Of a stretch of DNA of 64,000 bases, positions 4,441 to 33,317 are shown piece by piece (position 1 is the stretch's first letter; each line of letters opens with the position of its first letter). Origin of the DNA: an uncultured Gammaproteobacteria bacterium. Its GTDB lineage: Bacteria > Patescibacteriota > Patescibacteriia > Magasanikbacterales > GWA2-37-8. The stretch covers positions 39,065-103,064 of the forward strand of contig CAZHYJ010000003.1 of NCBI GenBank assembly GCA_964536725.1, read 5' to 3'. The notes beneath the pieces are model-generated. The model had not been told where the DNA came from. It worked only from the letters and a program-made list of their open reading frames with translations, and searched no databases. A program made the position numbers and the translations under genes.

Positions 4441-4443
4441 TTT

Positions 4444-4998: not shown

Positions 4999-5023
4999 CG
5001 GCCCATATTTTTGCAAAGTTATT

Positions 5024-5266: not shown

Positions 5267-5267
5267 G

Positions 5268-18711: not shown

Positions 18712-21477
18712 ATGTCCTTACTTACCAAGATTTTCGGTGATCCTAACGCTAAGGTAGTGGCGTCCATAAAACCAATTGTTGAAAAAATAAACTCCCTGGA
18801 ACCCTCCATGGAGAAGTTGTCATTAGAAGAATTACGTGGTAAAACCACGGAGTTTAAAGATCGTCTCCAAAAAGGCGAAACTTTGGATGATATTTTGCCC
18901 GAGGCTTTTGCAGTGGTACGTGAAACTTCGCGCCGGATAACCGGCATGCGTCATTTTGATGTTCAGCTGATCGGTGGCGTGGTTTTGCATCGTGGGCAAA
19001 TTGCTGAGATGAGAACTGGTGAGGGTAAAACTTTGGTAGCAACACTGCCAATATATTTAAATGCCTTAGCCGGTCGTGGTGTGCACCTGGTAACCGTTAA
19101 TGATTACTTGGCTAAACGTGATGCCGTCTGGATGGGTCAGATTTATGACGCACTCGGACTCAGTATCGGTATTATCCAACAGCAGATGATTTCATATAAA
19201 TATGTAAAGACTAAGTTGTTGTCAGCGGAAGAAGTAAAAGAAAATGAAAACGCGGTTACAGTGACAGGTGAAAAAGAAGATAGTCAGTTGGCGAAATTTA
19301 AAGTGGAGATGGAACATCTGGAACCATGTACGCGTAAAGAAGCATATGCCTGTGATATCACTTACGGCACCAACAATGAATACGGTTTTGATTATCTGCG
19401 CGACAACATGGTGCAGAGCATGGAAGAGATGTCACAGCGACCTTTTTTCTTTGCAATCATCGATGAGGTAGATTCGATTTTAGTGGATGAGGCGCGCACC
19501 CCTTTGATTATCTCTGCTCCCGCTGAGGAAGCGGCAAATTTGTATTACAAGTTTGCGGATCTGGTCAAGCAGTTGGTGATCAACGAAGATTACAATGTTG
19601 ATGAAAAAATGCGGGCAGCCACTTTGACAGAAGAAGGTATCCATAAAATGGAACAGTGGCTTGGTATTGAAAATATTTATGCGGAAGGTGGAACTAGTAC
19701 AGTACATCACGTGGAGCAAGCTTTGCGTGCCTTTGCACTTTTCCGTCGTGATCGTGATTATGTCGTAGAAAATGGGGAAGTGGTAATCGTGGACGAATTT
19801 ACCGGTCGCAAAATGCCCGGTCGTCGTTACAGTGAAGGTTTGCACCAAGCGATTGAAGCGCAAGAAAAAGTGGAGATTCAGCGTGAGAGTCGTACTTTGG
19901 CGACCGTTACTTTTCAGAACTACTTTCGTCTCTATGCCAAACTAGCCGGTATGACTGGTACGGCTGTTACCGAAGCAGAAGAGTTTGGTAAGATTTACAA
20001 ATTGGAAGTGGTGGTAGTGCCAACCAACAAGTTGGCTCGTAGAACTGATCACCCCGATCGGATTTACAAAACGGAAGAGGCGAAATATCAGGCGATTGCT
20101 AAAACAGTAAAAGAATTTCAAACCAAAGGCCAACCAGTTTTGATTGGTACTATTTCGGTAGAAAAAAATGAAGAGTTGAGTCTGTATTTAGAACGGGAAG
20201 GAATCAAACATGAAATTTTGAATGCAAAAAACCATGAACGTGAAGGTGAAATCGTCGCGCAAGCCGGTCGGGCTGGGGCTGTGACATTAGCCACTAACAT
20301 GGCGGGACGTGGTGTTGATATTATCTTAGGTGGTAACCCACCAGACAAAGAGTTAGCAGAAAAAGTGAAAGATGCCGGTGGTTTGTTTGTGATTGGTACC
20401 GAGCGCCACGAATCACGCCGTATTGATAACCAGTTGCGTGGTCGTGCTGGTCGCCAGGGCGATCCGGGTGAAACCCAGTTTTTCCTTTCTACCCAAGACG
20501 ATTTGATGCGCATTTTTGCTGGCGACCGAATTCGTTCGGTGATGGAAACATTGCGCGTGCCGGATGATATGCCGATTGAACAAAAAAGTATTACTAAATT
20601 AATTGAATCCGCGCAAAAGAAAGTGGAAGGTTTCCATTTTGATACCCGCAAACATTTATTAGAATACGATGATGTCTTAAATCGTCATCGTGAAGTTATC
20701 TACGGCAAACGCCGTGAGATTTTGGAAACTTTTGTCAAAGAAAAAGCGGCTTTGACTGGTGAGGAAAAACCAACTAAAACTTTACGTGAGTTGGTTTTCA
20801 AAATGATTGAAGATGAAATTGAACAGGTAGTTTCTTTTCATACCAACACTGAAGAACGCCAAGATTGGAATTTGAAAGAAATTCAGGAAACAGTGGCGAC
20901 TATCTTCCCGCTGAACACGAAGGAAAAAGAAAAGATTTTGGAATACAGTAATCACGGTACAGAAAAATTGGACGCAGTGAATGTGCGCACTGAGTTGATC
21001 GAATATTTAATGGAGATGGCGCGATTGCGATATGATGAGATGTTAGTGAACAAAGCACCCGATCCAGAAATGATGTTGGAAATCGAAAAGCAAATGTTGT
21101 TGCGTTCGATTGATAACCTGTGGGTGGAACATTTGGTGGCTGTGGATTATCTGCGCACCGGTATTGGTTTGCGCGGTTATGGCCAGAGAGATCCGCTGGT
21201 GGAATACAAAAAAGAAACTTACCACATGTTTAATGAGTTGTTGAGTTTGATTCAAAAAGAATTGGTTTATAGTATTTACAAAGTCAGTGCTGGAATTGAT
21301 CTGGCGCCGAGCGTGATGTCGCGAGGTAATGTGATTTTAAAGGGTGCGGAGACAGGCGAAGAACAGGTAGTGACTAAGGGGGCGATAAAAGATGCTGAAG
21401 GGAACAAAGTGGGGCGCAATGATTTGTGTCCGTGTGGGAGTGGGAAAAAGTTTAAGAAGTGTCATATGAATGTTTAG
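18712..21477 (+). CDS. secA: preprotein translocase ATPase SecA (with C-terminal zinc-binding tail CPCGSGKKFKKCH)
   Basis: Full-length SecA: DEAD-like motor motifs, preprotein cross-linking domain, C-terminal Zn finger. Confidence 0.95.
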   Translation: MSLLTKIFGDPNAKVVASIKPIVEKINSLEPSMEKLSLEELRGKTTEFKDRLQKGETLDDILPEAFAVVRETSRRITGMRHFDVQLIGGVVLHRGQIAEMRTGEGKTLVATLPIYLNALAGRGVHLVTVNDYLAKRDAVWMGQIYDALGLSIGIIQQQMISYKYVKTKLLSAEEVKENENAVTVTGEKEDSQLAKFKVEMEHLEPCTRKEAYACDITYGTNNEYGFDYLRDNMVQSMEEMSQRPFFFAIIDEVDSILVDEARTPLIISAPAEEAANLYYKFADLVKQLVINEDYNVDEKMRAATLTEEGIHKMEQWLGIENIYAEGGTSTVHHVEQALRAFALFRRDRDYVVENGEVVIVDEFTGRKMPGRRYSEGLHQAIEAQEKVEIQRESRTLATVTFQNYFRLYAKLAGMTGTAVTEAEEFGKIYKLEVVVVPTNKLARRTDHPDRIYKTEEAKYQAIAKTVKEFQTKGQPVLIGTISVEKNEELSLYLEREGIKHEILNAKNHEREGEIVAQAGRAGAVTLATNMAGRGVDIILGGNPPDKELAEKVKDAGGLFVIGTERHESRRIDNQLRGRAGRQGDPGETQFFLSTQDDLMRIFAGDRIRSVMETLRVPDDMPIEQKSITKLIESAQKKVEGFHFDTRKHLLEYDDVLNRHREVIYGKRREILETFVKEKAALTGEEKPTKTLRELVFKMIEDEIEQVVSFHTNTEERQDWNLKEIQETVATIFPLNTKEKEKILEYSNHGTEKLDAVNVRTELIEYLMEMARLRYDEMLVNKAPDPEMMLEIEKQMLLRSIDNLWVEHLVAVDYLRTGIGLRGYGQRDPLVEYKKETYHMFNELLSLIQKELVYSIYKVSAGIDLAPSVMSRGNVILKGAETGEEQVVTKGAIKDAEGNKVGRNDLCPCGSGKKFKKCHMNV

Positions 21478-21509
21478 GCAAAAAGGGCTCTGTATAGAGC
21501 TCTTTTTTT
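21448..21509 (+). repeat. attL-like junction: secA 3' end plus terminator hairpin (copy 1 of an imperfect direct repeat)
   Basis: gtttaagaagtgtcatatgaatgtttaggcaaaaagggctctgtatagagctcttttttt matches 31658-31729 at about 85% identity. Confidence 0.6.
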
Positions 21510-21512
21510 AAT
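21478..21512 (+). terminator. rho-independent terminator of secA
   Basis: Hairpin AGGGCTCT-GTAT-AGAGCTCT followed by a T7 run. Confidence 0.7.
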
Positions 21513-21603
21513 TATCAAATTGGGTAGAGTTACTTTTTTGAGTACTATCTACAGTTTTTCTCCTCTCGGTTTGTATTGACCCCTACTCACATGGTTTTAA
21601 AGT

Positions 21604-23163
21604 CTACAGAACAAAATCTATTTCGATTTTTCCATCTCCAGCCCTAATTTGTTTTATTACTGTACGCAATATTTGTTTTTTCTCATCCAACATCATGGCT
21701 CCCCACAAATTATCAAAATCTTTAAGCGTGGCGGCAAATTTCTTTAAGACTTCTATGTTTTGATCTAGCTGCATCAGGTTGGTCTTGGTGCGTACAATTT
21801 CTTGTTCATATCGTTCTTTATCAACGCGAAGTCTGGTCATGGCCTCTCCGTATTGTTCGGTGGTTATTATGTTTTTTTCAAATGCTTCCTGCTGCCTTTT
21901 TAGCCGCTCTGGCAGACGACTGTGCTCTTGCTCTAATTTAGTCAATTCATCTGATAAATTTTGTTTAGTGTCACTATTACCACTGTAAATAATTCGCTCC
22001 TGTATTTTTGGGTTGCCGTATAAACATCTAATTTGATCAAGGACGGCACCTTCTAGTTTAGTTGCACTCATAATACGTGGTGAACAAATGCCAGAATATT
22101 TATAGCCACTGCAGAGATATTCATAGGTTGTGGTGTCAGACCAATTTTTATTGAGTTGTGAACGCTTGTGGTGTCGCGTCTGATAGTTTCCACCTTTACC
22201 ACATCTGATACATTTTAACAAGCCAGTCAACAATCCAAGTGAACGAGCGGATCCTCCAAACGCCGCCTTACTACGTTCTCGTTTGGTGCTTTGTGCTTTG
22301 GTAAATATTTCTTCTGATATTATTGGCTGGTGATTGCCTTGTACGGTAATTCCTTCTCTGCCTCTAAGTTGCTTTTCTTTTGTCTTTTTATAATCTGCAA
22401 ACCTCCACCCCCACCAAACTTTTCCAGTATAAGTGATATTACTTAGAATGTATCTGATTGTATGTGCAGTCCACACCCCACCTTTAGGGCTAATTTTTCC
22501 GCACCTATTAAGTTCTGTGGCTATCTTTTGTACACCAGCTCCTTTGGTATATTGGTTAAAAATATGACGAATAAGTGGTGCGGCTTCATTGTCTAGACTA
22601 ATTTCACGTTTAATTTTTCCATGATCGTCAATTGATTTTTTAACTGAATATCCAAAAGGCACTCGGTTTGGAATGATACCTTGTTTTGCTTTGCTGTTTC
22701 TTCCCATTTTCATGCGACGGCTAATCGCTTTGCGTTCTAAGTCCGAGCGTATGTCAGACATTCCTTCTACCATTATGTTTATGTCATCGTCATCTGAATC
22801 GTATGTTTTTGGGTCTCGTGGTTCAACAGGGGAGTTTATAGCATATGTTTGGATGCCGAGATCCTTTAACTCTTCACGTGTGATAGTGGCAGCAGCACGA
22901 TTGCGAGCAAAACGATCAAAATCTTTTACAATTACTAAATTAAATTTATGGTTGCGCGCGTCACGTAAGAGAGATTGAAACCCTACTCTTTCCTCGGTTA
23001 AGTGGCCACTTATGCCAAGATCAACGTATTTATTGTAAAGTGTCCAACCTGCATGTTCGTTGATAACACGTCTGCAGGCCTCCTCTTGATCGGCTGGCGA
23101 AGCTTTTCCATCAGCTTGTTCTTTAGTTGATACCCGAATGTAAATCGCGGCTGTTATATTCAT
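21604..23163 (-). CDS. large serine recombinase (resolvase/invertase catalytic domain, recombinase domain and zinc ribbon)
   Basis: N-terminus AAIYIRVSTKEQ with the catalytic Ser, then DLGISG and RFARN motifs; about 520 aa with a Cys-rich C-terminal region; start set at the Met of MNITAAIY. Confidence 0.85.
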   Translation of the reverse strand: MNITAAIYIRVSTKEQADGKASPADQEEACRRVINEHAGWTLYNKYVDLGISGHLTEERVGFQSLLRDARNHKFNLVIVKDFDRFARNRAAATITREELKDLGIQTYAINSPVEPRDPKTYDSDDDDINIMVEGMSDIRSDLERKAISRRMKMGRNSKAKQGIIPNRVPFGYSVKKSIDDHGKIKREISLDNEAAPLIRHIFNQYTKGAGVQKIATELNRCGKISPKGGVWTAHTIRYILSNITYTGKVWWGWRFADYKKTKEKQLRGREGITVQGNHQPIISEEIFTKAQSTKRERSKAAFGGSARSLGLLTGLLKCIRCGKGGNYQTRHHKRSQLNKNWSDTTTYEYLCSGYKYSGICSPRIMSATKLEGAVLDQIRCLYGNPKIQERIIYSGNSDTKQNLSDELTKLEQEHSRLPERLKRQQEAFEKNIITTEQYGEAMTRLRVDKERYEQEIVRTKTNLMQLDQNIEVLKKFAATLKDFDNLWGAMMLDEKKQILRTVIKQIRAGDGKIEIDFVL

Positions 23164-23361
23164 ATAATAGCATGTTAATTTAATAAAAAAAATGGAATAC
23201 AAAAAGGGGCAGTCGAAGGTCTACCCACGTTTAGTACTACGAAAGTGCTAATTGTGGAATCGAATGCCCCTTTTTGTGCGCAAAAAGATATGACAGTTTC
23301 GTAGCTGAAATCGTGGGTAGACGATATTAGTATAACAAAACAGGAAGATCTTTTCAACATG

Positions 23362-23652
23362 TTAATTATTGTTAATTTGACGTTCAACCACTGTGTTGAT
23401 CAGGCCAGCTACCATATCAGCGAGGCGGGAAGCAAGAAAATCACCATTTAGATTATTTGTGATTATAATTAATTTTTGTCCTGCTGTGCACAAGGAGCCA
23501 TCACTATCATCGGATGAATCTGGGCCATCCGACTTAGCTTTTCTGCTCTGCCTCTGCGAATGTGTTTGTCTTCCTCTAGATCTTACCTGCCTATTTTTGA
23601 TTTGCAGATTTACCACCCTGCGAGCGGTTACACTTTTTGGAATATTTGCCAT
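23362..23652 (-). CDS. hypothetical basic/acidic small protein
   Basis: 96 aa ORF inside the island; Arg-rich N-terminal part, Ser/Asp-rich middle. Confidence 0.3.
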   Translation of the reverse strand: MANIPKSVTARRVVNLQIKNRQVRSRGRQTHSQRQSRKAKSDGPDSSDDSDGSLCTAGQKLIIITNNLNGDFLASRLADMVAGLINTVVERQINNN

Positions 23653-23663
23653 ATTAGTAATTT

Positions 23664-23927
23664 TTATTTATTAGTATCTTTTTGATCTTTGTTAGTGTCA
23701 TCAGAATCAAATTCTTGCTGGTTTTCATCGATACAACTAGAATTTTTCACAACAGGTTCATTGTGGTGGATATTTTTACCTCCCTTACCTTTACGGGAAG
23801 GATTATGGCCCATTCTATAGTCATATAATGGGCAGTCATTTGATGGACAAAACTGAACTTCTTTTCTTTGACCACACATACAATTTAAACAGTTTTGTCT
23901 TATTGCTTTAATTGGAGTTAGTGTCAT
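23664..23927 (-). CDS. small zinc-ribbon protein
   Basis: CLNCMCGQRKEVQFCPSNDCPLYDY Cys cluster. Confidence 0.4.
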   Translation of the reverse strand: MTLTPIKAIRQNCLNCMCGQRKEVQFCPSNDCPLYDYRMGHNPSRKGKGGKNIHHNEPVVKNSSCIDENQQEFDSDDTNKDQKDTNK

Positions 23928-24146
23928 ATTAATTATTAAATTAATGATTATTGCAGAGGCAGGTATGTGTTAAAAGCACCTGCCTCTATTTATAGTATTT
24001 CACTCCTACCCTTACAGTTTGTACCCACCTCTACCAACAGACAGACGAACCGACAAACCACGACTCTATAGGTTGCATATATAGGGTGCAATTCTACACC
24101 AGTTATTACAGGTACTATTTTGGTGGGTCTAGTAAAGCTTTTGCAT

Positions 24147-24974
24147 TTAAGGAGGACGAGTTTTTTGTCGTTGCCCCCAGTGTGCTTTTAAACTAAACCT
24201 CACCAGACTAATACCCGTAAATTTAAATCTGTTTGGTAAAGTTCGCATCAGGTAGTTTTTTTCATTTTTTACTTGGATAGAATAGGCATATGGGTTATCT
24301 CCAACACGATCTTTTATTTGATCATCTACCACAGTATCCATATTGATTAGAATCCAATTGGAAAGAGTCGTTTTGATTTCTATATTTTGATAAACTCGCG
24401 TGTTTGGTATTATTTTCGCTTTGGATATCTGTATTTGATATATAATGGTTCGCTTTGATACATTGAACTTTTTGGCCATCTTAGTGTAAGACAATCGGCC
24501 TACGGTAATTTTTCGTTTATATTTTCTGTCTAAATCACATTCTGCGTATAGCCGAATGATCAGCGCTTTAAACTTGGTATTGTTGTTTAGCAGTTCCAAG
24601 AGACCTTTGTTCAATCTTTGTTTTCTTTTAAGTGTTCCATTCATTCTAAGTTTGTGGAGCTTGCAGATCGCTTTCCAAGACAGGTAGTATATTTTTTTGT
24701 GTCCAATTCCAGAAAATAATCCAGATTTTCTACAGGAACGTATAGTATGACGTAAATTGTCCCCGGTAAATTTTATTAGTTGATCAGTATCTACACATCC
24801 TGTGCCTGTTGGATTTAGAATATGTCTACATATGAACCAAATGCGTAGAGGCCCTACTAGGTTTTTGTGGTGCTGATAAAAATGAAAAAGAACATTAAGG
24901 TGGAAAGAAATTATTTTTGGAGTAGAATTTTTCATTTTATATATCGTTAAATAACAAAACGCACATATGAACAA
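24147..24974 (-). CDS. hypothetical protein with C-terminal helix-turn-helix (sigma region-4-like)
   Basis: Segment RLSYTKMAKKFNVSKRTIIYQIQISKAKI resembles an HTH; the true start may be the internal Met (MKNSTPK, about 24935). Confidence 0.4.
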   Translation of the reverse strand: MFICAFCYLTIYKMKNSTPKIISFHLNVLFHFYQHHKNLVGPLRIWFICRHILNPTGTGCVDTDQLIKFTGDNLRHTIRSCRKSGLFSGIGHKKIYYLSWKAICKLHKLRMNGTLKRKQRLNKGLLELLNNNTKFKALIIRLYAECDLDRKYKRKITVGRLSYTKMAKKFNVSKRTIIYQIQISKAKIIPNTRVYQNIEIKTTLSNWILINMDTVVDDQIKDRVGDNPYAYSIQVKNEKNYLMRTLPNRFKFTGISLVRFSLKAHWGQRQKTRPP

Positions 24975-25249
24975 TATCCAACCCCCATCTCCTAAAAAGC
25001 GGGGGTTAATATTTTATCTTCATATGTGCGCTACAAGTATTGTTGCCTTTTGCAACCGCGAATGTGATCGCAATATCACTCCGCCTTTTTATTGGTTTGG
25101 TCTATTTGGTAATATTTTATCGGAAGAAAACTGGTACCAAGTCATTTTGTGAATAAATTCACAATACCTGAATGATCTAAATATTTTTTGAATGTCTAAT
25201 TGATCAAAAAAACGGCATAAATTTGATGGATAAGTAATTAATTATTTTG

Positions 25250-25930
25250 TTAGCTGGTTAGTACTGCCTCTGCAAATTGCTTGTTGGCAAGGGATTTTAT
25301 ATCTGCGTTATATGATTCTTCCAGATTATTCCATTGGCGAAAGAAACGGATGGCGCGTTTAGTTGGTCGGCCATTATAAGAAATTCTGTCCATGCTTTCG
25401 CGTAATTTAGCCAACTTAATTCTTTTGTGAACATAATAGGGAAGTCCACCCAATGATTTTTTGTTGATTCTGGTTGACTCATAAGCTAATTCGCTGCAAA
25501 TACGACATACAAACAGGCTGTTTTTAGGCAGGTATAGTTTGTTGCATTTTCTACCACAATCACAGGTAAAGTAATATCGTGTTCCATATTGTAATTCTTG
25601 GGTTGATAATTTAATTGTCTGTTCTGCCCCACTGTCCATATGTGTGGCATCTTTTACAAAAAATATTTCTAGCATTAATTTTTCTCCTTCTAATTTCACT
25701 TCGTAATTGATAAATAGATTGCCGGTAGTCCCTCTAATCATAAATTTGCCTCTTCTACCCTTGGGTTTGACTAAATCTGGGAATAACTTTTCCTCTATAC
25801 CAGAGACCTGGTGTAGTAGTTTTTTGCCAAAGTCACCAATGCAGAGAGTGTGAGATTCCTCTACCAACGCTTTGACAGGTGGTTCTCTTTTTAGTATTTC
25901 AATTATGTCATTTTTGGTTAGATTTTCCAT
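25250..25930 (-). CDS. hypothetical protein with internal zinc ribbon
   Basis: 226 aa; CDCGRKC...CRIC Cys pairs; no family recognised. Confidence 0.4.
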   Translation of the reverse strand: MENLTKNDIIEILKREPPVKALVEESHTLCIGDFGKKLLHQVSGIEEKLFPDLVKPKGRRGKFMIRGTTGNLFINYEVKLEGEKLMLEIFFVKDATHMDSGAEQTIKLSTQELQYGTRYYFTCDCGRKCNKLYLPKNSLFVCRICSELAYESTRINKKSLGGLPYYVHKRIKLAKLRESMDRISYNGRPTKRAIRFFRQWNNLEESYNADIKSLANKQFAEAVLTS

Positions 25931-26203
25931 ATTTTTAACGATATTTTATTATCTATTATTAATTATTTCATAAGTACATCAGGTCAGTCTAATGTTTTAA
26001 AAAGAGAAAAAAAAGAGGGCCATACCCGATAGTATGAGTCCCGTGAATAGCAGGAGGACCCAAAACAAACCACTGCCCCTACCCGCCTATATAACCAATG
26101 TTATTATTTCCCTTTTATCAATACCTGCCTCTACCGTTAGCTACTATTTCTTTAGATAAGCCCCGCCACCGGAGCTTATTTTATTTTTAACTTATATGTA
26201 TCT

Positions 26204-26488
26204 ATGTCAGAAGTATTAAGCAACTATTCTGGATCTGCAATTACTGCCCAGACAGTTGCCTTAGAAATAGAGAAGCGTTGGGGTAGGACAGAAGTCGAGA
26301 AGTACGATCCATTTTCTAACTGTTTAACATATCGGCGGTGGGCAGAGTTAGATTACAGGGTTAAAAAAGGGGAGAAGGCGATCCGTAGTAAAACCTTCGT
26401 AGAGAAAAAAGACGAACTTGGTAATATAATAAAAAAATACCCAAAGACAGTCTGCCTCTTCTATTACCTTCAAGTAGAAAAAATATGA
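26204..26488 (+). CDS. ArdC-N (DUF1738)-like ssDNA-binding domain protein
   Basis: LTYRRWAELDYRVKKGEKAIRSKTF matches the ArdC N-domain core pattern (W.T..QA...G..V.KGEK.....F); identification by eye only. Confidence 0.45.
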   Translation: MSEVLSNYSGSAITAQTVALEIEKRWGRTEVEKYDPFSNCLTYRRWAELDYRVKKGEKAIRSKTFVEKKDELGNIIKKYPKTVCLFYYLQVEKI

Positions 26489-26691
26489 AGGTAAAAAACC
26501 AAAGACTGGTGAGTTATCGCCGCTATAGCATAAATGGACAACCAACGCCATTTCTTCCAATCGAGGGAAAGTTCCTAGAACAGTATGGTTTCAATATCGG
26601 ATGCGCCGTCGATGTTCAATACTCAAACGGCTTTGTGTCCATCAAAAAGATCATACAAGATCGTTACGGAGATAAATTTAATATTAAATAA
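26485..26691 (+). CDS. SymE-like toxin (SpoVT/AbrB fold)
   Basis: QRLVSYRRYSINGQPTPFLPIEGKFLEQYGFNIGCAVDVQYSNGFVSIKKI parallels the E. coli SymE core ([47 protein letters not shown]); overlaps the upstream gene by 4 nt. Confidence 0.6.
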   Translation: MKVKNQRLVSYRRYSINGQPTPFLPIEGKFLEQYGFNIGCAVDVQYSNGFVSIKKIIQDRYGDKFNIK

Positions 26692-26693
26692 CT

Positions 26694-26957
26694 ATGCATA
26701 AAAAAATTTTAAACAACATACAAAGAACAAATCTATCTCTGTTAGACCCCATAATCGTGGGTGAGCTAAAATCTGGTAATTGGCGCAACTCACCAAGTCC
26801 ATTGCTGCACTGTATTAAATGCGGTGGTTATAAAATCACCACGCCGATAATCCAGTTTTATGGTTATCTGGGAGAGAGGTTAGTATGTTATGAGTGCCAG
26901 AAATTAATTCAGTCTAATTTAAAATCATATGAACCATACCAACGTTGCAGTCGTTAA
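26694..26957 (+). CDS. small zinc-ribbon protein
   Basis: CIKCGGYKITTP...CYECQKLI Cys pairs. Confidence 0.35.
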   Translation: MHKKILNNIQRTNLSLLDPIIVGELKSGNWRNSPSPLLHCIKCGGYKITTPIIQFYGYLGERLVCYECQKLIQSNLKSYEPYQRCSR

Positions 26958-27657
26958 ACCTGCCCCGACTATAGTATCTATACCTGCTCTGTCTCTACAG
27001 GAGGCGATAGAACCTTCCAAGGTGCTTGAATTCGCTCACAAGGCAGCTAAAGCGCTCAAAGACGTCATTGATAGTAGTTCTAAGAAAGTAATGATCAATG
27101 GCGAACAGTTTCTGACCTTTGAAAATTGGCAGACAATAGCCCGGTTCTATAATATAACTGTCGGAACAGAATCTACTAAGCCAATAACCAAAGACAATAA
27201 GATATTTGGCTATGAAAGCAAGGCAGTAGCATATCGTGACGGCATAATTATTTCCTCCGCAGAAGCTAGTACTTTTAGAGATGAGGCAAGTTGGAGAGAT
27301 AAACCAAGTTTCCAACTAAAGTCTATGGCACAAACCAGGGCAGCGGCTAAGTGTTTAAGGAATATATTAGCGTGGGTTGTCGTGCTTGCAGGGTATAAAC
27401 CTACCCCTGCGGAGGAAATGATCGAACACAATGCACCTGTCTCTGCTGATAGTTATAGTGCCACTAAGAATTTCAGATCTTGGGAGGACGCTAAAGAGAA
27501 TGTAATCACTCCTAAACAATCTTCGCTTCTGCGGTCTCTCATAATTGAAAAAGTGCTAGACGAAGATGCTCGTGAGCAGAAACTCAGCGAAATTAAAGAT
27601 TTAACCAAGTCTGATGCTTCTATTTGGATATCCGACCTTATTAACGATAGAGTATGA
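26929..27657 (+). CDS. possible phage-type single-strand annealing protein (RecT/Redbeta-like); function tentative
   Basis: MINGEQFLTFENWQTIARFYNI and KSMAQTRAAAKCLRNIL resemble conserved RecT-family segments; recalled pattern only. Confidence 0.3.
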   Translation: MNHTNVAVVKPAPTIVSIPALSLQEAIEPSKVLEFAHKAAKALKDVIDSSSKKVMINGEQFLTFENWQTIARFYNITVGTESTKPITKDNKIFGYESKAVAYRDGIIISSAEASTFRDEASWRDKPSFQLKSMAQTRAAAKCLRNILAWVVVLAGYKPTPAEEMIEHNAPVSADSYSATKNFRSWEDAKENVITPKQSSLLRSLIIEKVLDEDAREQKLSEIKDLTKSDASIWISDLINDRV

Positions 27658-27986
27658 TGTATTTAATCGTCATAATCGTCGTTGTGGCTATCTTTTGTGC
27701 GCTTCGTAAGTTCTTTCTAGGTGACGATGTCTCTAGTTCGCCACAGTACAAGAATGTTGATGTTGTCCTGTCTCTGCCGGTAGAGATAGTTGCAAATCAT
27801 AGACCCACAATGTCTATAAGTGAGAGAGAAAGGCGTAGGCGCAACTTGTTGCAGAGTGTTTATGCTCTTGGTTTTAGACATGCCAACGCTTACAAGATAT
27901 TAGACGCTCGCGATCACGACTTTTCTCTATTACCGTATTATTACCTAAGTAATAAACAAAAAATATATGTTGACCCACCAAAATAA
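27654..27986 (+). CDS. small membrane protein
   Basis: N-terminal TM helix; translationally coupled to neighbours. Confidence 0.35.
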   Translation: MMYLIVIIVVVAIFCALRKFFLGDDVSSSPQYKNVDVVLSLPVEIVANHRPTMSISERERRRRNLLQSVYALGFRHANAYKILDARDHDFSLLPYYYLSNKQKIYVDPPK

Positions 27987-28185
27987 ATCTCCTGAAGATA
28001 AAGCATCACTGTTATTCCTATTGTCGTTTTGGTTTGTGATCCTACCTGCGTTGTTTGCCTGTTTCATTATCGTTTTGTTTCTTCCAGGTTTACGGGAGTC
28101 TCTTTCGGATATTCTGGCGGTAAGCTTCTTCGTATTTGCTGGATTGTCTCTGTCGTATTGGGGGATAAAGCGTTTTAAAAAGTAA
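27967..28185 (+). CDS. small two-TM membrane protein (holin-like topology)
   Basis: 72 aa with two hydrophobic helices and a charged C-terminus. Confidence 0.3.
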   Translation: MLTHQNKSPEDKASLLFLLSFWFVILPALFACFIIVLFLPGLRESLSDILAVSFFVFAGLSLSYWGIKRFKK

Positions 28186-28193
28186 TTGCCGGG

Positions 28194-28230
28194 GCAGTAG
28201 CTAAAAACTACTGCCTTTTATTTTTATTGA
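28194..28230 (+). terminator. rho-independent terminator
   Basis: GCAGTAG-CTAAAAA-CTACTGC hairpin followed by CTTTTATTTTT. Confidence 0.6.
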
Positions 28231-28438
28231 CTAAACCGCCTAAAAGTAGCATAATAATTATGACAATTTAATGACCTAAACCATTGGGTAAAATCGGTGG
28301 CATGGTCGAAAAACGTATACACACAGAGATGGACTCACCATCTTTGGTATGTGTATGCGTCAATATTCGAAAGGATATTGGGGTCCGAAAGGTCCCGCCA
28401 AAGTATGGTAGTCCTTTTTTGTATATAATTATTTTTTT

Positions 28439-28996
28439 ATGTCTTTCCTAGATTATATTTCGGGCAGAGTCGGTACAATTAACAAACTCAGAGACTTAGT
28501 TTGCGGAAAATACCGAAATCGCATAGACAATGTTTTGTCATCTGGCAATAAAGATGTATCAACTTCACCGGAATTTAGTGTTTGTTTGATGGCCGTTATT
28601 CACACTGAATACATGATACTTAATTCTTTTCAGCCAGATGTTGATTTGTTTATGAAGTATTCAAATAATATTTCTGAACATTATTTTGATGAAATATATA
28701 AAATAATGGTTGTTTGGTTTATCTACCATAATTTTAAACTTTTCCCAGAGACAAAGAATATTGATGAAAAAAAATTCCAAACTTTTTTAGCTTTAATATT
28801 TGAAATACTGCCTGATAAATTTGAATATATCCAAAATAATTTTATCAATTCTGGCAATGACATTGACGGTTATTTTGAACAAATATGTAATTGCATTTCA
28901 GCAAACAAGAACGATTCTATGGCGTTCATTAAATTTTCAAAACTTGCAGCGGAAAGTCACAAAAGTGCATTATCTATTTTAACAAACGGTGTTTAG
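28439..28996 (+). CDS. hypothetical protein
   Basis: 185 aa ORF in the island; no motif recognised. Confidence 0.4.
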   Translation: MSFLDYISGRVGTINKLRDLVCGKYRNRIDNVLSSGNKDVSTSPEFSVCLMAVIHTEYMILNSFQPDVDLFMKYSNNISEHYFDEIYKIMVVWFIYHNFKLFPETKNIDEKKFQTFLALIFEILPDKFEYIQNNFINSGNDIDGYFEQICNCISANKNDSMAFIKFSKLAAESHKSALSILTNGV

Positions 28997-29022
28997 CTTA
29001 GTTGTTTAAATATAATTAGCAT

Positions 29023-30315
29023 ATGAATAAATATCTTAAGTTGCTTCCAATTTTTCTGTTGTTTGGTTTGTTGTTTATAAAACCAGTAAAAGCAACAATG
29101 GCATGCATGGAGGGTGTTCCAGATGTGAACACAATGAATAGCTGGCCACGTGAGCAATTAGATGCGTTCAATAGGCAATTACAGGCCAATTGTCAGCGTG
29201 AAAGAGATGCTATAGCGGCAGAGGCAGAATATCAGGCCAACTTAGTAGAGATAGAGTATCAAGGGTATGTTGATAGTTTTAATATTCACCAGAAGGCGCT
29301 GGATGGTTTAAAAGAAGCTAATCTTGCGTTGTATAATAAATGTCATACTAGTTCTTTGTCTATTTGCATAATAGGGGATAGTGTTACGGACTTATCAAAC
29401 CAATCTTTTGGCCAGTTAAGTGTAATAGTCGCTTCAAAAGTAAATTGCGTGAATGCGATTAATAAATGCATGTCGGCAGAGCAAGACAATACTAAGTATG
29501 ATGCTTTGTGTAAAAATACTCTTGGACCATACGGAGCTTTGGATCGTTTGACTTCTGACACTTATTATTGCAAGTGTATTGGTGGTTATGTGAAATCAAA
29601 TAATCGTTGTGTAGATGTTGCAACGGATAATGATAGTGGTTGTAAAAGTAGATACGGTAATAATAGTTATTTTTTAAAAATCAAAGACGACGGTACGGTG
29701 ACTTGCGATTGCGTTTCGGGTTATAAATGGCAGGGCAATACTTGCGTTAAAGATGTGCCTGTTTTAGCTCCAATAACTGTGACTACGCCAGACCAATTAT
29801 GTCAAAATAAATATGGGCAATTTTCTAAATCTATTTCAAATGTAAATGGTCAAAATATATGCGATTGTTTAGGTGGTTATAGCTGGAATCAAGGTCAGAC
29901 CCAGTGCGTTAAATTAGAAGATAATAAAGTTGTTGATTGTAAGAAAGGTACTGTTGATCGTAGTGGAGTATGTTTGACTCCACAACAAGATTGTGAAAAT
30001 TCCTATGGCCCAGATGCTAAAGCAGTTGAAGATGGTTCCGATTTGGGATATACTTGTCCTGTGGTACCGAAAAATACCAAATCAAAAATTGTCGAAAATC
30101 CACCAGTAGAGAAAATTAAAACGCTTGATATAGAAGTGGTCAAATTGGACAATGGCAACAAAATTGTTTCATCCACAGTGCCACTGTTAACAGATGTAAT
30201 GAATAATATAACAATCACAACACCACCTCAAATAAGTATAGAAAAACCAAAACCGGTAAGTATCTTTTTTAACGCCATAAAATCATTCTTCCGCTCTATT
30301 TTCAGATTAAGATAA
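29023..30315 (+). CDS. secreted cysteine-rich repeat protein (CxC-x2-GY-x-W/K...C modules)
   Basis: Signal peptide; at least three repeats such as YYCKCIGGYVKSNNRCVDV, VTCDCVSGYKWQGNTCVKDV and ICDCLGGYSWNQGQTQCVKL; about 34 Cys. Confidence 0.55.
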   Translation: MNKYLKLLPIFLLFGLLFIKPVKATMACMEGVPDVNTMNSWPREQLDAFNRQLQANCQRERDAIAAEAEYQANLVEIEYQGYVDSFNIHQKALDGLKEANLALYNKCHTSSLSICIIGDSVTDLSNQSFGQLSVIVASKVNCVNAINKCMSAEQDNTKYDALCKNTLGPYGALDRLTSDTYYCKCIGGYVKSNNRCVDVATDNDSGCKSRYGNNSYFLKIKDDGTVTCDCVSGYKWQGNTCVKDVPVLAPITVTTPDQLCQNKYGQFSKSISNVNGQNICDCLGGYSWNQGQTQCVKLEDNKVVDCKKGTVDRSGVCLTPQQDCENSYGPDAKAVEDGSDLGYTCPVVPKNTKSKIVENPPVEKIKTLDIEVVKLDNGNKIVSSTVPLLTDVMNNITITTPPQISIEKPKPVSIFFNAIKSFFRSIFRLR

Positions 30316-30368
30316 TCTGTGGTATAAATAAGCACAGCTTAGTTCACTAATTCCTAGCCACAAACCAT

Positions 30369-31250
30369 ATGAAGCAATTCTTTTTAAATCTGCTAAAATT
30401 AGCCTTCTCTTTTATCACGATAGTGTCTATTATCGCCGTCTGGATGACTCTATCATATTATGTTATTAAAGTTTGCGTACCAGCCTTCTCCGTTGACACA
30501 AGCACCGATACTTCAACGACAGAAACAGTAGAAAGCACCGAAGAAGACTGCAATGTTTACGGTATAAACCTCCACGGTGACGTTATTACATATCACACAC
30601 CCGACTCATTTAATAGCGAAGGTGACCTAATGTTTGACCAAACCTCAGCTGATGTAGTAATGAGGCTTATTACCGAAGCAGAAAATGATGATGATATTAA
30701 ATACGTAATAGTTGAAATATCTTCTTCTGGTGGATCACCAGCCGCTGGTTTTGAAATGATGCAGGCGTTTAGAAGTTCGACCAAGCCAGTAGTTGCGTTT
30801 GCTAGGGATGGTGCTATGTCTGCAGCCTATTTGGCGGCAACAGGGGCACAAACAATATTTGCGTCTCACGCTTCAGATATAGGTTCAATCGGGGTAACGG
30901 CCTCATATCTAGAGAATGTGGAACAAAACAAAAAGGAGGGATTAAAATATATTGATTTAAGTGTTGGAAAATTTAAAGACACAATGAACCCAAACCGCGC
31001 GCTTACCAACGAAGAAAAACAACTAATAATGCGAGACATTGTATTATTGAATGAAAATTTTATAAAAACAGTAGCCGAAAATCGTAAATTAGACATTAAA
31101 AAAGTCCGCCTACTTGCTGATGGATCCACGATGATGGGGGAGGATGCTCTTAAGAATGGTTTGATTGATAAAATCGGGAACTTATATGATGTGGAGGATT
31201 TTGTTAAAGATAAAATAGGGGAGGAAGTAAATATTTGCTGGAAGAATTAA
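30369..31250 (+). CDS. S49-family serine peptidase (signal peptide peptidase SppA-like, ClpP/crotonase fold), membrane anchored
   Basis: N-terminal TM helix; VIVEISSSGGSPAAGFEMMQA...GAMSAAYLAATGAQTIFASHASDIGSIGV matches the SppA Ser/Lys dyad region. Confidence 0.65.
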   Translation: MKQFFLNLLKLAFSFITIVSIIAVWMTLSYYVIKVCVPAFSVDTSTDTSTTETVESTEEDCNVYGINLHGDVITYHTPDSFNSEGDLMFDQTSADVVMRLITEAENDDDIKYVIVEISSSGGSPAAGFEMMQAFRSSTKPVVAFARDGAMSAAYLAATGAQTIFASHASDIGSIGVTASYLENVEQNKKEGLKYIDLSVGKFKDTMNPNRALTNEEKQLIMRDIVLLNENFIKTVAENRKLDIKKVRLLADGSTMMGEDALKNGLIDKIGNLYDVEDFVKDKIGEEVNICWKN

Positions 31251-31428
31251 GTATTAAAAGGGGCTAAATAGCAATAGTTTAGACCTTTTTTATATTATTA
31301 ATTACTTTACTTAACATGGCAATCTTCTGATGGTAATTATCTAACCGGAATTTTTATTAGGTTAGCCGGATCGGTAGTTTACATGTTGGTGCCGCTTATT
31401 TTGAAGGACTTAAAACTTTGGTAGCACT

Positions 31429-31593
31429 ATGATGTCAGATCAAGAATTTAGAAAACATTTACCTAAAGACAAAGAGTGCACTGATGAAGAAGTAAATGAA
31501 TTAAGAAGAGTAATGTATGGCTTGGCAGATCTTGCCTTTGATAAGTGGGTAAAGGAGAAGGGGATTAAGGTTGATAAGTTAAATGCGGAGTAG
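31429..31593 (+). CDS. hypothetical small protein (54 aa)
   Basis: ORF below the track threshold: MMSDQEFRKHLPKDKECTDEEVNELRRVMYGLADLAFDKWVKEKGIKVDKLNAE. Confidence 0.25.
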   Translation: MMSDQEFRKHLPKDKECTDEEVNELRRVMYGLADLAFDKWVKEKGIKVDKLNAE

Positions 31594-31657
31594 TTTGAAT
31601 TTGGTATTGTTTTCTGTTAAACTGCCAGCAGTGTTTAAGCGGTGTTTAAAGTCTAAA

Positions 31658-31729
31658 CATTAGACTAACACTTCAAGAAGTGTCATGGTAATGTTTAGGC
31701 AAAAATGGCTCTGTACAGGGCCATTTTTT
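31658..31729 (+). repeat. attR-like repeat: degenerate copy of the secA 3' end (HFKKCHGNV-stop) plus terminator hairpin, containing the dyad site ACACTTcaagAAGTGT
   Basis: About 85% identical to 21448-21509; hairpin AATGGC...GCCATT plus T-run; upstream perfect inverted repeat AGTCTAA-ACA-TTAGACT at 31649-31665. Confidence 0.6.
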
Positions 31730-31791
31730 AAACTTGACATTCGTCTAATTTCCGTCTATAATACGTCTATAAAGTACTTCATTCAAACCCT

Positions 31792-32823
31792 ATGTTCCAG
31801 CCAAAATACACCATTACACCAAGGTTGTTGGCTAATATCAAAAGAATAGCTGAGTTGGTGGTTGAATTAAACAGCAGACATTTTCCTAAAATTGTCTTAT
31901 TGGATTTCGAAAAAAGAGCCAGAGAAATTTCGGCTCATTCTTCCACCGGCATAGAGGGCAATCCTTTACCCTTAACTGAAGTAAAACGTTTGTTAAAACA
32001 TGCGCCAGAGCGTAGGCGAGATAGTGAGAAAGAAGTATTAAATTACAACAATGCTTTGGAATATTTAAACAGTCTGCTTAATCAGAGTGGTTTTAAATTT
32101 GATTTGAATTTAATTTTGGATATTCAAAAGAAGGTTACCGCTGATTTGATTCACGAATTTCGTTCTGGTAAAATTCGCCAGGAACCGGTGTTTGTAAATA
32201 ATCCCCAAACTCGACGGACGGTTTATTATCCACCAGATCATCAGGATGTTCCAAACATGGTAAGTGATTTGTTGCAATTTACAGCAGTTAACGAAAGCAA
32301 ACTCGATCCGTTGGTGGTAGCTGGTATTTTTCACAAGCAGTTTGTAGTTATTCATCCTTTTGTTGATGGCAACGGACGAACTACTCGTTTGGCCACGAAA
32401 ATGCTTTTAGCCAGAATGGGTTTAAATACTTTTAATCTATTTAGTTTTGAAAATTATTATAACAATAATGTCACTAAATATTTTCAAAATGTTGGTTTAA
32501 TCGGCAACTACTATGATTTAAAAAACGATATTGATTTTACCCTGTGGCTAGAATATTTTACTGATGGTATTATTGATGAGCTCTTAAGAGTCGGTGGAGA
32601 ATTGGTTAAAACAAATATCACACCGGAAAATGAGTTAAAACCTTACCATCAAGAAATATTAAGCTATATCAAGAATAATAATTTTATCAAAGACAGCGAT
32701 TACTCTAAACTTACCAAGCGAGCCAAACCAACAAGGAATTTAGATTTTAGAAAGTTAATTGAGCTTGGTTTAATTGAAAAACAGGGCAAGGGTAAAAGTA
32801 CCTACTATATTTTGAAGAAATAA
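31792..32823 (+). CDS. Fic/Doc-family protein (adenylyltransferase-type Fic domain with C-terminal winged-helix)
   Basis: Canonical HPFVDGNGRTTR active-site motif. Confidence 0.85.
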   Translation: MFQPKYTITPRLLANIKRIAELVVELNSRHFPKIVLLDFEKRAREISAHSSTGIEGNPLPLTEVKRLLKHAPERRRDSEKEVLNYNNALEYLNSLLNQSGFKFDLNLILDIQKKVTADLIHEFRSGKIRQEPVFVNNPQTRRTVYYPPDHQDVPNMVSDLLQFTAVNESKLDPLVVAGIFHKQFVVIHPFVDGNGRTTRLATKMLLARMGLNTFNLFSFENYYNNNVTKYFQNVGLIGNYYDLKNDIDFTLWLEYFTDGIIDELLRVGGELVKTNITPENELKPYHQEILSYIKNNNFIKDSDYSKLTKRAKPTRNLDFRKLIELGLIEKQGKGKSTYYILKK

Positions 32824-32825
32824 TG

Positions 32826-32860
32826 TAAACATTAAATTAACACTTTAAGAAGTGTCATGG
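32826..32860 (+). repeat. third copy of the recombination-site core (taaacattaaattaacactttaagaagtgtcatgg)
   Basis: 33 of 35 nt identical to 31654-31688; carries the dyad ACACTTtaagAAGTGT; with copy 2 it brackets the Fic gene as direct repeats. Confidence 0.55.
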
Positions 32861-32873
32861 GGTGTAAAGCGAT

Positions 32874-33317
32874 ATGGAAGATAAAAAAGATTTGTATTTC
32901 GTCGCGGTTAAAGTCTTTTTGCAAAATAGCGAAGGAAAACTTTTGATTACGAAAGATAAGTTTGGTGATTGGGATATCCCGGGTGGGAGATTGCGTGACA
33001 ATGATTTTAACGTACCTCTTGAGGAGGTTGTCGCTAGAAAGATAAAAGAGGAATTAGGGGAGATTTCATACAAATTGGGTGAGCCCGCCGTTTTTATGCG
33101 TCACGAGCGAGACGAAATCTTGTCGACAGGCGAAAGAGAAAAGCGCAGAATTTTTGCAATTGGTTACAAGGCGGAATATTTGGGTGGCGATTTGAAATTG
33201 GGAGGCAACCATGAAAAGTTAGAATGGGTAGATCTGAATAATTTTATTCCGGAGGATTATTTCACCGGTGGCTGGTTACAAGGGGTGAAAGAGTTTCAAT
33301 TTAAATATGGAAGATAA
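32874..33317 (+). CDS. NUDIX hydrolase
   Basis: Nudix box GGRLRDNDFNVPLEEVVARKIKEELGE. Confidence 0.75.
   Translation: MEDKKDLYFVAVKVFLQNSEGKLLITKDKFGDWDIPGGRLRDNDFNVPLEEVVARKIKEELGEISYKLGEPAVFMRHERDEILSTGEREKRRIFAIGYKAEYLGGDLKLGGNHEKLEWVDLNNFIPEDYFTGGWLQGVKEFQFKYGR

What the first reader, a model, noticed from the sequence alone, without database searches (positions are those of the whole stretch)
31649..32866. Fic gene cassette bracketed by two near-identical 35-nt dyad-symmetric sites (tandem insertion at the same attB)
The Fic gene (31792-32823) is flanked by taaacattagactaacacttcaagaagtgtcatgg (31654-31688) and taaacattaaattaacactttaagaagtgtcatgg (32826-32860). Both contain the 6-bp inverted repeat ACACTT-N4-AAGTGT, which is typical of a recombinase dimer core. 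A perfect inverted repeat AGTCTAA-ACA-TTAGACT sits at 31649-31665. Copy 3 again ends in an in-frame pseudo C-terminus of SecA (FKKCHGV-stop). This suggests a second, small element (a Fic toxin module) inserted at the same secA-end attachment site. It would be either a cassette mobilised in trans by the island recombinase or a remnant of serial integrations.
Basis: seen in the sequence. Interest (0 to 1): 0.65.

Follow-up and report, generated by a model that had tools for sequence, protein, structure and literature searches.

The report
Recombinase-less Fic cassette beside secA island
A single Fic (SoFic-like) gene at the end of secA in a Candidatus Magasanikbacteria genome looks like the stripped-down remnant of an older integrated element, and a 10-kb serine-recombinase island later inserted beside it, which is a familiar pattern (tandem accretion) seen here in a new host group and at a new target gene.

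Summary
The two 35-nt sites are real: 32/35 identical, and none expected by chance. A third related site is the 3' end of secA.

The left site is not a Fic boundary as such. Its left 21 nt is the P arm of the 10.2-kb large-serine-recombinase (LSR) island. Five independent assemblies of the same species (99.7-99.9% identical flanks) lack the island and join secA directly to Fic, with a junction exact to the base.

Fic therefore sits between an attL-type site (secA::P') and an attR-type site (P::original secA end, ...KKCHGV*). Joining its two ends rebuilds a 44-bp dyad attP (TAAACATT-N6-ACACTT-yAAG-AAGTGT-N6-AATGTTTA, central AA) like the island's own.

The best reading is a recombinase-less element (CIME / pseudo-SCC-like) resident at secA, with the LSR island later integrated into its secA-proximal site.

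Fic was present in every same-species contig. It is absent from the secA end in the closest other species, and no excised circle or empty site was found. Mobilisation in trans is therefore possible (the att motif blocks are intact) but not shown.

Fic carries its own inhibitory motif and matches the SoFic defence family. It is not a toxin-antitoxin pair.

This is a known kind of architecture with a new host (CPR), a new target (the secA zinc-finger codons) and new cargo.

The parts
18712..21477 (+). secA, the target gene. It now ends ...CPCGSGKKFKKCHMNV*. The last codons, from the second base of the KK pair onward, are supplied by the island.
   Evidence: ORF; SecA Pfam domains, homologues; about 85% of 120 close homologues end CHG-x*.
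21433..21476 (+). Copy 1, the attL of the LSR island. B arm (secA) 21433-21453, central AA 21454-21455, P'1 arm GAAGTGTCATATGAATGTTTA 21456-21476.
   Evidence: Dyad score is 5/21, as expected for a B-P' hybrid.
21480..21507 (+). Island-borne replacement terminator for secA.
   Evidence: 12-pair stem plus T run; homologous to 31698-31729.
21456..31676 (.). 10,221-bp LSR island, present or absent between strains. Besides the LSR it carries an S49 peptidase, an ArdC-N-like gene, a SymE/AbrB-like gene and unknown ORFs.
   Evidence: Repeat spacing 10221. Absent with a precise junction in L002, L004, L006, L007 and L008; present in L001 and L005. Gene content.
21604..23163 (-). Large serine recombinase: Resolvase, Recombinase and Zn_ribbon_recom domains plus a C-terminal coiled-coil region.
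   Evidence: 1.1e-25, 8.5e-22, 5.4e-09; phrog_95 integrase, 2.9e-100. Homologues of 77% and 61% identity also lie next to secA.
31654..31697 (+). Copy 2, a hybrid site: the island's P1 arm (31654-31674), central AA (31675-31676) and the Fic unit's P'2 arm (31677-31697). It is a full 44-bp attP-like dyad.
   Evidence: 17/21 dyad matches.
31698..31729 (+). Hairpin plus T run (GGCAAAAATGGCTCTGTACAGGGCCATTTTTT). In island-free strains this is the terminator of secA.
31734..31762 (+). Fic promoter, a perfect TTGACA-17-TATAAT. It carries three CGTCTA(T)A repeats and is conserved upstream of Fic homologues in four different genomes.
   Evidence: the only 12/12 match in 21400-33000; conservation.
31792..32823 (+). 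Fic/SoFic-like AMP-transferase gene. Inhibitory motif S51TGIEG56, catalytic motif H188PFVDGNGR196, C-terminal HTH-like domain.
   Evidence: PADLOC SoFic 1e-44 over residues 47-342.
32826..32869 (+). Copy 3, the attR of the Fic unit. P2 arm 32826-32846, central AA 32847-32848, B' arm 32849-32869, which is the displaced original secA end (FKKCHGV* at 32844-32867).
   Evidence: B' resembles unoccupied secA ends in relatives (L107 CATGGGGCATAAG).
32874..33317 (+). NUDIX gene, the first chromosomal gene to the right. It is also the neighbour downstream of the secA region in a Fic-less relative (L014).

Best explanation
The 1,172-bp Fic unit (P' arm + terminator + own promoter + Fic + P arm) is a recombinase-less integrated element at the 3' end of secA. 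It is most likely what remains of an older island of the same LSR/att family.

Mechanism:
- An LSR dimer binds a 44-bp dyad attP (TAAACATT-N6-ACACTT-yAAG-AAGTGT-N6-AATGTTTA) on the circular element.
- It recombines this at the central AA with the secA codons for the zinc-finger tail (..KF-KK-CH..).
- The element's P' arm re-supplies the K-C-H codons, a new tail (x-N-V*) and a terminator. The original end (..CHGV*) is displaced to the far side as a pseudo C-terminus.

The first such event left Fic between attL (secA::P'2) and attR (P2::B'). Later, in one strain lineage, the 10.2-kb LSR island integrated into the secA-proximal site. That site still has the B arm and the first 12 nt of the right half-site. 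The products were copy 1 (B-P'1) and copy 2 (P1-P'2).

Shown:
- the three sites and their arm relationships;
- the precise island presence/absence;
- LSR identity;
- recurrence of this LSR family at secA.

Inferred:
- the crossover at AA (it can only be placed within the 12-nt AAGAAGTGTCAT);
- the origin of the Fic unit by decay;
- the order of events;
- any present-day mobility of Fic.
For: 1. Arm logic. Copy 1 and copy 2 share the right arm plus terminator. Copy 2 and copy 3 share the left arm. Copy 3's right arm is an in-frame SecA end.
2. Five assemblies from other samples have secA..AAGTTT-AAGAAGTGTCAT-GGTAATGTTTAGG..Fic with no island. Their flanks are 99.7-99.9% identical to the window.
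3. Reconstructed attP1 (P1+P'1) and attP2 (P2+P'2) both score 16/21 dyad matches, copy 2 scores 17/21, and only 2 positions in 64 kb reach 16 or more.
4. The recombinase is an LSR.
5. A 77% homologue sits at secA with the same type of P' arm and gives SecA a ..CHQNV* tail. A 61% homologue sits at secA in another tandem.
6. About 85% of the 120 closest SecA proteins end CHG-x*, as predicted for the displaced end. About 10 carry the x-N-V* (or similar) footprint.
7. In the closest other species the secA end is unoccupied or holds other DNA, and none has Fic there.
8. A Fic homologue of 83% identity in another Magasanikbacteria genome is followed directly by P arm + core + ..KKCHGA*.
9. The 6 differences between the Fic unit's arms and the island's arms fall 5/6 in the 12 spacer positions. 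My binomial estimate is P about 0.009.
Against: - No clean empty site (secA..CHGV* directly followed by NUDIX) was found. Synteny downstream of secA is poorly conserved even at 87-92% SecA identity.
- Fic is fixed in every same-species contig.
- Canonical serine integrases do not recombine attP with attL-type sites (PMC3783163). Integration into B-P'2 therefore requires this LSR to accept P'2 as a B' half-site, or a different history.
- The x-N-V* tail occurs alone, without a distal P arm, in one relative (L108). Some such tails may be old or native.
- The closest Fic homologues (89% and 79%) lie elsewhere in the chromosome without att arms.
Confidence: 0.72

Rival explanations
1. The Fic unit is a naturally minimal cassette that is actively mobilised in trans. 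The island's LSR (with an unknown directionality factor) excises it as a 1.17-kb circle carrying attP2 and re-inserts it at secA ends. This would be an integron-like exchange of single defence genes.
For: - Both arms keep every motif block intact, with substitutions confined to the spacers.
- There is no junk DNA between terminator, promoter, ORF and P arm.
- Other single- or two-gene units bracketed by repeated secA ends occur in other CPR genomes: a SET-domain gene in L103, an AbiEii-like gene in L019, and two small ORFs in L035.
- Fic joined to a P arm is seen in a second species.
Against: - No P2-P'2 circle junction, no B-B' empty site and no P1-B' junction appeared in any contig, or in the JGI metagenome and IMG/VR pattern scans.
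- Fic is fixed within the species.
- Island-free strains have no cognate LSR nearby.
- Intact arms could simply reflect recent decay.
Confidence: 0.15
2. Island plus Fic is one 11.4-kb composite element that integrated once. Copy 2 is an internal duplicated att site and Fic is ordinary island cargo.
For: - Composite transfer of accreted elements is documented for other systems (PMC5704250).
- Island-bearing contigs are 100% identical across the whole region.
Against: Five independent assemblies keep Fic but lack the island, with the breakpoint exactly at copy 2. So the two units separate. Copy 2's right arm is identical to the island-free secA end.
Confidence: 0.08
3. Fic and the secA tail (CHGNV* plus terminator) are native chromosome. 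Copy 3 is a chance similarity or a stray scar unrelated to Fic.
For: A P'-like x-N-V* tail without a distal site exists in L108. A P'-like terminator lies downstream of an unoccupied secA in L105.
Against: Copy 3 has 18/21 identity to the island's element-specific P arm, plus the 12-nt core, plus an in-frame SecA end of the family-typical length. Chance expectation is 0.00. The same P arm + core + SecA end follows Fic in L095.
Confidence: 0.03

Closest known systems
SCC composite islands and pseudo-SCC elements at rlmH (orfX) in staphylococci
   Same: - Large serine recombinases integrate at the 3' end of a conserved housekeeping gene and regenerate that end.
- Several units are arrayed in tandem and separated by repeated att sequences.
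- Units without a recombinase (pseudo-SCC) sit beside recombinase-bearing ones and carry accessory or defence genes.
(PMC6243372; PMC12648241.)
   Different: - The target is secA, not rlmH.
- The host is a CPR bacterium.
- There is a single LSR gene rather than ccrAB or ccrC.
- The LSR was not tested for orthology to Ccr.
- The unit holds one gene of 1.17 kb.
CIME (cis-mobilizable elements) and site-specific accretion with ICEs/IMEs (ICESt1/ICESt3 model)
   Same: A decayed element has lost its integration genes but kept attL and attR. [quoted passage not shown]
   Different: - Those systems use tyrosine recombinases and conjugation.
- Here the recombinase is an LSR and no transfer genes were recognised.
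- Canonical LSR rules disfavour attP x attL-type reactions (PMC3783163).
Phage serine integrase attP/attB systems (phiC31, Bxb1, A118/LI)
   Same: The recombinase has the same domain architecture. attP is an imperfect dyad of roughly 44-50 bp around a non-palindromic central dinucleotide (here inferred to be AA).
   Different: - attB and attP share 12 nt (usually only the dinucleotide is shared) because the element must rebuild the K-C-H codons.
- Integration occurred into a B-P' hybrid site.
- No recognisable phage structural module is present.
SoFic single-gene anti-phage defence / class II Fic AMP-transferases
   Same: There is a near-full-length match to the PADLOC SoFic model (1e-44). The HPFx(D/E)GN(G/K)R motif and an N-terminal (S/T)xxxE(G/N) inhibitory helix are present, aligned to FICD's TVAIEGN.
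   Different: No defence activity has been tested. There is no downstream small anti-Sofic gene like AS1 (PMC12249575), because only 2 nt separate the stop codon from the P arm.

Membership tests
Large serine recombinase (serine integrase) integration system | Recombinase with Resolvase catalytic domain, Recombinase domain and zinc ribbon | tested here: met
   PF00239 1.1e-25, PF07508 8.5e-22, PF13408 5.4e-09; phrog_95 integrase 2.9e-100.
Large serine recombinase (serine integrase) integration system | attP is an imperfect dyad of about 40-50 bp around a central dinucleotide | tested here: met
   Reconstructed attP1 and attP2 score 16/21 half-site matches around AA. The background has only 2 positions at 16 or more in 64 kb.
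Large serine recombinase (serine integrase) integration system | Precise occupied and unoccupied alleles of the target | tested here: met
   This holds for the 10.2-kb island: L002, L004, L006, L007 and L008 versus the window, L001 and L005. It does not hold for the Fic unit, for which no empty allele was found.
Large serine recombinase (serine integrase) integration system | Only attP x attB recombine (attL x attR needs a directionality factor) | tested here: inconclusive
   The island's target in island-free strains is B-P'2, formally an attL-type site. It shares B and 12 nt of the right half-site with the inferred attB. The rule is from PMC3783163. Enzyme behaviour cannot be tested here.
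CIME / accretion tandem | Element retains attL and attR but lacks integration and transfer genes | tested here: met
   Only the promoter and Fic lie between 31698 and 32825, flanked by a P' arm and a P arm.
CIME / accretion tandem | In tandem with an element encoding a recombinase of matching specificity, joined by a hybrid att site | tested here: met
   Copy 2 = P1-P'2.
CIME / accretion tandem | Derived from an ICE/IME (conjugative system, tyrosine recombinase) and mobilised in cis | tested here: not met
   The recombinase is a serine recombinase, and no relaxase or T4SS was recognised in the island. Cis-mobilisation is not testable. The unit therefore works like a CIME but is not a member in the strict sense.
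SCC / pseudo-SCC | Integration at the 3' end of rlmH (orfX) by Ccr recombinases | tested here: not met
   The target is secA. Orthology to Ccr was not examined.
SCC / pseudo-SCC | Units bounded by repeated att sequences; a recombinase-less unit lies next to a recombinase-bearing one | tested here: met
SoFic-type Fic protein | Fic catalytic motif HPFx(D/E)GN(G/K)R and a match to the SoFic profile | tested here: met
   HPFVDGNGR at 188-196; PADLOC SoFic 1e-44 over residues 47-342; Pfam Fic 3.6e-18.
SoFic-type Fic protein | Protects against phage by AMPylation / abortive infection | not testable with these tools
The family description is from PMC12249575.
Class I Fic toxin-antitoxin module (e.g. 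VbhT/VbhA) | A separate small antitoxin gene supplies the inhibitory helix | tested here: not met
   There is no ORF room in the cassette. The inhibitory motif S51-x3-E55-G56 lies within Fic itself.
Integron gene cassette | attC site recombined by an IntI tyrosine recombinase at attI | tested here: not met
   The recombinase is a serine recombinase. The sites are attL/attR halves of a 44-bp dyad, not attC.

The most novel reading that the evidence does not exclude
The secA zinc-finger codons (..KK-CH..) may be a phylum-wide landing pad in Patescibacteria for one LSR family. Single-gene units (SoFic-like Fic, AbiEii-like, SET-domain) bounded by P'/P half-sites would then be true mini-cassettes that the LSR shuffles in trans. 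That would be a serine-recombinase analogue of the integron for defence genes in organisms with tiny genomes.
Probability: 0.12. Interest if true: 0.7.

Novelty: new member of a known kind. Interest (0 to 1): 0.4.

Why it matters
This gives a base-resolved example of how mobile DNA enters and accumulates in CPR/Patescibacteria, where mobile elements and defence genes are poorly charted.

- An LSR family appears to have adopted the strongly conserved SecA zinc-finger coding sequence as its target. It rebuilds the essential Cys-His codons from its own arm.
- The x-N-V* SecA tail is a simple footprint for finding such insertions.
- The reconstructed 44-bp attP and its natural targets define a testable new LSR/att pair.

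The architecture itself, tandem accretion beside a decayed element, is already well known from SCC and from ICE/CIME systems.

Tried and rejected
- A degenerate pattern covering every arm combination (B-B', P-P', P1-B' and so on) was scanned in the JGI metagenomes and IMG/VR. It returned only the known locus plus an unrelated SEC-C-motif protein (L091). No circle or empty-site junctions were found.
- Look-ups of the exact Fic and NUDIX proteins showed Fic always present.
- Eighty GTDB secA loci had no LSR or Fic within 10 kb of secA, so no species-representative parallel was found.
- I considered using synteny to show that Fic always sits upstream of the usual secA-downstream gene (L097 HD protein versus L014; L107 membrane protein versus L095 MFS). 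The similarities are too weak (24% identity at E 3e-6; E 5e-4) to carry weight.
- The left flank of Fic in L095 is not secA and shows only local inverted repeats. I could not explain it.
- The attR of the 77% LSR island (L099) lies beyond the fetched 10 kb.
- The attB-versus-attP zinc-domain register shift of the LI-integrase model could not be recognised by eye in these half-sites, so I make no claim about it.
- The 7-bp AGTCTAA/TTAGACT inverted repeat is island-specific and not statistically notable.

Full report
**Observation.** The two quoted 35-mers are at 31654-31688 and 32826-32860. They differ at three positions. No other copy exists in the window and none is expected by chance. The inner ACACTT-N4-AAGTGT repeat is present in both. 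The 7-bp hairpin is at 31650-31666, one base off the quoted coordinates. Copy 3 reads FKKCHGV-stop at 32844-32867. Fic (31792-32823) is a real Fic-domain gene. A third related site is the 3' end of secA: 21446-21511 is 82% identical to 31667-31732, including a terminator hairpin.

**Anatomy of the three sites.** All three share AAGAAGTGTCAT. Copy 1 (secA end) and copy 2 share the sequence to the right of this core: xxxAATGTTTAGGCAAAAA, then a hairpin and a T run. Copy 2 and copy 3 share the sequence to the left: TAAACATTArAyTAACACTTy. Copy 3 has its own right side, GGGGTGTAAAGCG.

In att notation:
- copy 1 = B-P'1;
- copy 2 = P1-P'2;
- copy 3 = P2-B'.

Joining P1 to P'1, or P2 to P'2, gives a 44-bp dyad: TAAACATT-N6-ACACTT-yAAG-AAGTGT-N6-AATGTTTA. 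Each has 16/21 half-site matches about a central AA. Copy 2 itself scores 17/21. Copies 1 and 3 score 5/21 and 7/21. In the whole 64-kb window only two positions score 16 or more. The gene at 21604-23163 (minus strand) is a large serine recombinase with Resolvase, Recombinase and zinc-ribbon domains. A dyad of this size around a non-palindromic dinucleotide is the usual form of attP for this class (PMC3783163).

**Population evidence.** Looking up the exact Fic protein returned contigs from several independent assemblies.
- In five of them (L002, L004, L006, L007, L008) secA runs straight into Fic...GGGAAAAAGTTT-AAGAAGTGTCAT-GGTAATGTTTAGGCAAAAATGGCTCTGTACAGGGCC..., followed by the Fic promoter. 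SecA then ends CHGNV*.
- L001 and L005 match the window and carry the island.
- Island-free contigs are 99.7-99.9% identical to the window in the flanks. Island-bearing ones are 100% identical.

The 10,221-bp island is therefore a strain-level insertion or excision with a junction precise to the base. The crossover lies within the 12-nt core, and the dyad centre places it at the first AA. In island-free strains Fic is flanked by B-P'2 and P2-B', which is the signature of an integrated element whose attP was P2-P'2.

**Is the Fic unit itself an insertion?** Every contig carrying the exact downstream NUDIX protein also carries Fic. No empty site or circle junction was found in the JGI or IMG/VR scans. 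The indirect evidence is nevertheless consistent.
- About 85% of the 120 closest SecA proteins end CHG-x*, exactly the form of the displaced end at copy 3. About ten end x-N-V* or similar, the translation of the P' arm.
- The closest other species have a secA end that is unoccupied or holds different DNA. L105 (91% identity) ends CHGS*. L107 (87%) ends CHGA* with CATGGGGCATAAG, close to copy 3's B'. L106 (92%) has a P'-type end followed by unrelated ORFs. None has Fic there.
- A more distant relative, L014, has secA-HD-NUDIX1-DUF1653 without Fic.
- In another Magasanikbacteria genome (L095/L096) an 83% Fic homologue is followed at once by GTCTAAACATACACTGACACTTCAAGAAGTGTCACGGGGCATAG. That is P arm + core + KKCHGA*.

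The six differences between the Fic unit's arms and the island's arms fall five in the spacers and none in the outer 8-bp or inner 6-bp blocks. My binomial estimate is P about 0.009. The sites therefore look intact.

**The recombinase family targets secA repeatedly.** A 77% homologue lies directly next to secA in four assemblies, with attL ..AAGAAGTGTCAT-CAGAATGTTTAAGC.. and a SecA tail CHQNV*. A 61% homologue (L103) lies at secA in another tandem: secA, then a 716-bp unit with a SET-domain gene, then the LSR island, then a P arm. Two further CPR genomes show the secA end repeated about 0.95 kb downstream. One repeat brackets an AbiEii-like gene (L019) and the other brackets two small ORFs (L035). 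About 0.2 such matches were expected by chance across the 80 loci (my estimate).

**Mechanism.** The crossover lies just before the G-AAG-TGT-CAT codons. The element therefore replaces the last Lys-Cys-His of the SecA zinc finger with identical codons from its P' arm, then adds a short new tail and a terminator. This explains why attP and the target share 12 nt and why the inner half-site block equals the K-C codons. It also explains how one LSR family can use a target conserved across CPR. The island chose the secA-proximal site of the resident unit, the only one that keeps the B arm. The same happens in ICE/CIME accretion (PMC5704250) and in SCC composite islands (PMC6243372). Canonical serine integrases do not pair attP with attL-type sites. 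B-P'2 and the inferred attB are identical for 12 nt right of centre, so this LSR presumably reads P'2 as B'. This step is inferred.

**The cargo.** Fic has the catalytic motif HPFVDGNGR (188-196). It also has an N-terminal S51TGIEG56 motif that aligns with the inhibitory TVAIEGN of FICD. It matches the PADLOC SoFic model almost end to end at 1e-44. It is a self-inhibited single gene, a candidate defence or abortive-infection enzyme (PMC12249575), and not a two-gene toxin module. Its promoter is the only perfect sigma-70 consensus in the region. The promoter is conserved, with three CGTCTA(T)A repeats, upstream of homologues in four genomes. The closest homologues (89% and 79%) lie at other chromosomal sites without att arms. 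The family is 65-89% identical across many CPR classes.

**Verdict.** It needs correcting on which arm belongs to what, on the order of events and on the nature of Fic. Host is Candidatus Magasanikbacteria. I found no paper describing integration at the secA 3' end. The architecture is a known kind (SCC/pseudo-SCC, CIME accretion), so I rate it a new member of a known kind, of moderate interest. Trans-mobilisation of Fic, and a wider LSR cassette system at secA, remain open.

Noticed in passing
L103 (reverse-complement coordinates about 4412, 5128, 13547): A second tandem at secA in another CPR genome. secA is followed by a 716-bp unit with a SET-domain gene, bracketed by AAGAAGTGCCATCTCATTGGGAA(G/A)GAATAATAG. 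Then comes an island with a 61% LSR homologue, ending in a P-like arm ATAACACTTCAAGAAATGCCACGG.
   Followed up: partly
L019 11287-12275; L035 2626-3640: The secA terminal codons are repeated about 0.95 kb downstream, each with an in-frame stop. In an Uhrbacteria genome the repeat brackets an AbiEii-like nucleotidyltransferase gene. In another CPR genome it brackets two small ORFs, just before a DUF1653 gene.
   Followed up: partly
window 31733-31771; L093, L095, L097 upstream of Fic homologues: The promoter block CTTGACATTCGTCTAATTTyCGTCTATAATAyGTCTATA is conserved in four genomes with different flanks. Homology starts exactly at the -35 box. Its three CGTCTA(T)A repeats may be an operator, perhaps for Fic's own C-terminal HTH domain.
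   Followed up: no
window 31632-31659: Two extra direct copies of GTGTTTAA (31631 and 31642) lie just outside the island's P arm. Counting the TAAACA at 31654 and the TGTTTA at 31692, the motif occurs four times around the site. These could be accessory binding sites (zinc domain or directionality factor).
   Followed up: no
L095 4177-4340 and the flanks of Fic at 4443-5477: This Fic homologue has an attR-type right end with a SecA pseudo C-terminus, yet its left neighbours are RNase J, a tRNA synthetase and a YafQ-like toxin rather than secA. A 26-nt inverted repeat (88%) sits where the P' arm would be. This could be a rearrangement, a further insertion or a mis-assembly.
   Followed up: partly
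L105 4462-4560: Downstream of an apparently unoccupied secA (CHGS*) lies CACGGAAGTGTTTAAACAAAAGGGCTCTGCAAGGGCCCCTTTTTT. This resembles the elements' P' arm plus terminator. The P' arm may therefore be a captured copy of a native secA 3' region, or this may be an old scar.
   Followed up: no
L108 12737-12800: SecA ends CHGNV* with a P'-like GGTAATGTTTAGACAAAAAAG, but no hairpin follows and no distal P arm lies within 10 kb. It is a lone footprint or a native variant.
   Followed up: partly
Fic homologues P0002-P0120; SecA loci L011-L090: Fic homologues are 65-89% identical across many CPR classes (Magasanikbacteria, Berkelbacteria, Gracilibacteria, Paceibacterota, Peregrinibacteria). The SecA C-terminal halves of comparably distant genomes are only 45-55% identical. 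This suggests horizontal spread or unusually strong constraint.
   Followed up: no
window 21604-23202 and island ORFs 23362-31595: The LSR ORF can start at TTG 23202 or ATG 23163, and public gene calls use the 519-aa form. The island has no recognisable capsid, terminase, relaxase or replication gene. It does have an S49/ClpP-like peptidase, an ArdC-N-like ORF, a SymE/AbrB-like ORF and a Cys-rich secreted protein of 430 aa. Its mode of transfer is unknown. Many LSR homologues lie on contigs of 9-12 kb, which may be whole elements.
   Followed up: no
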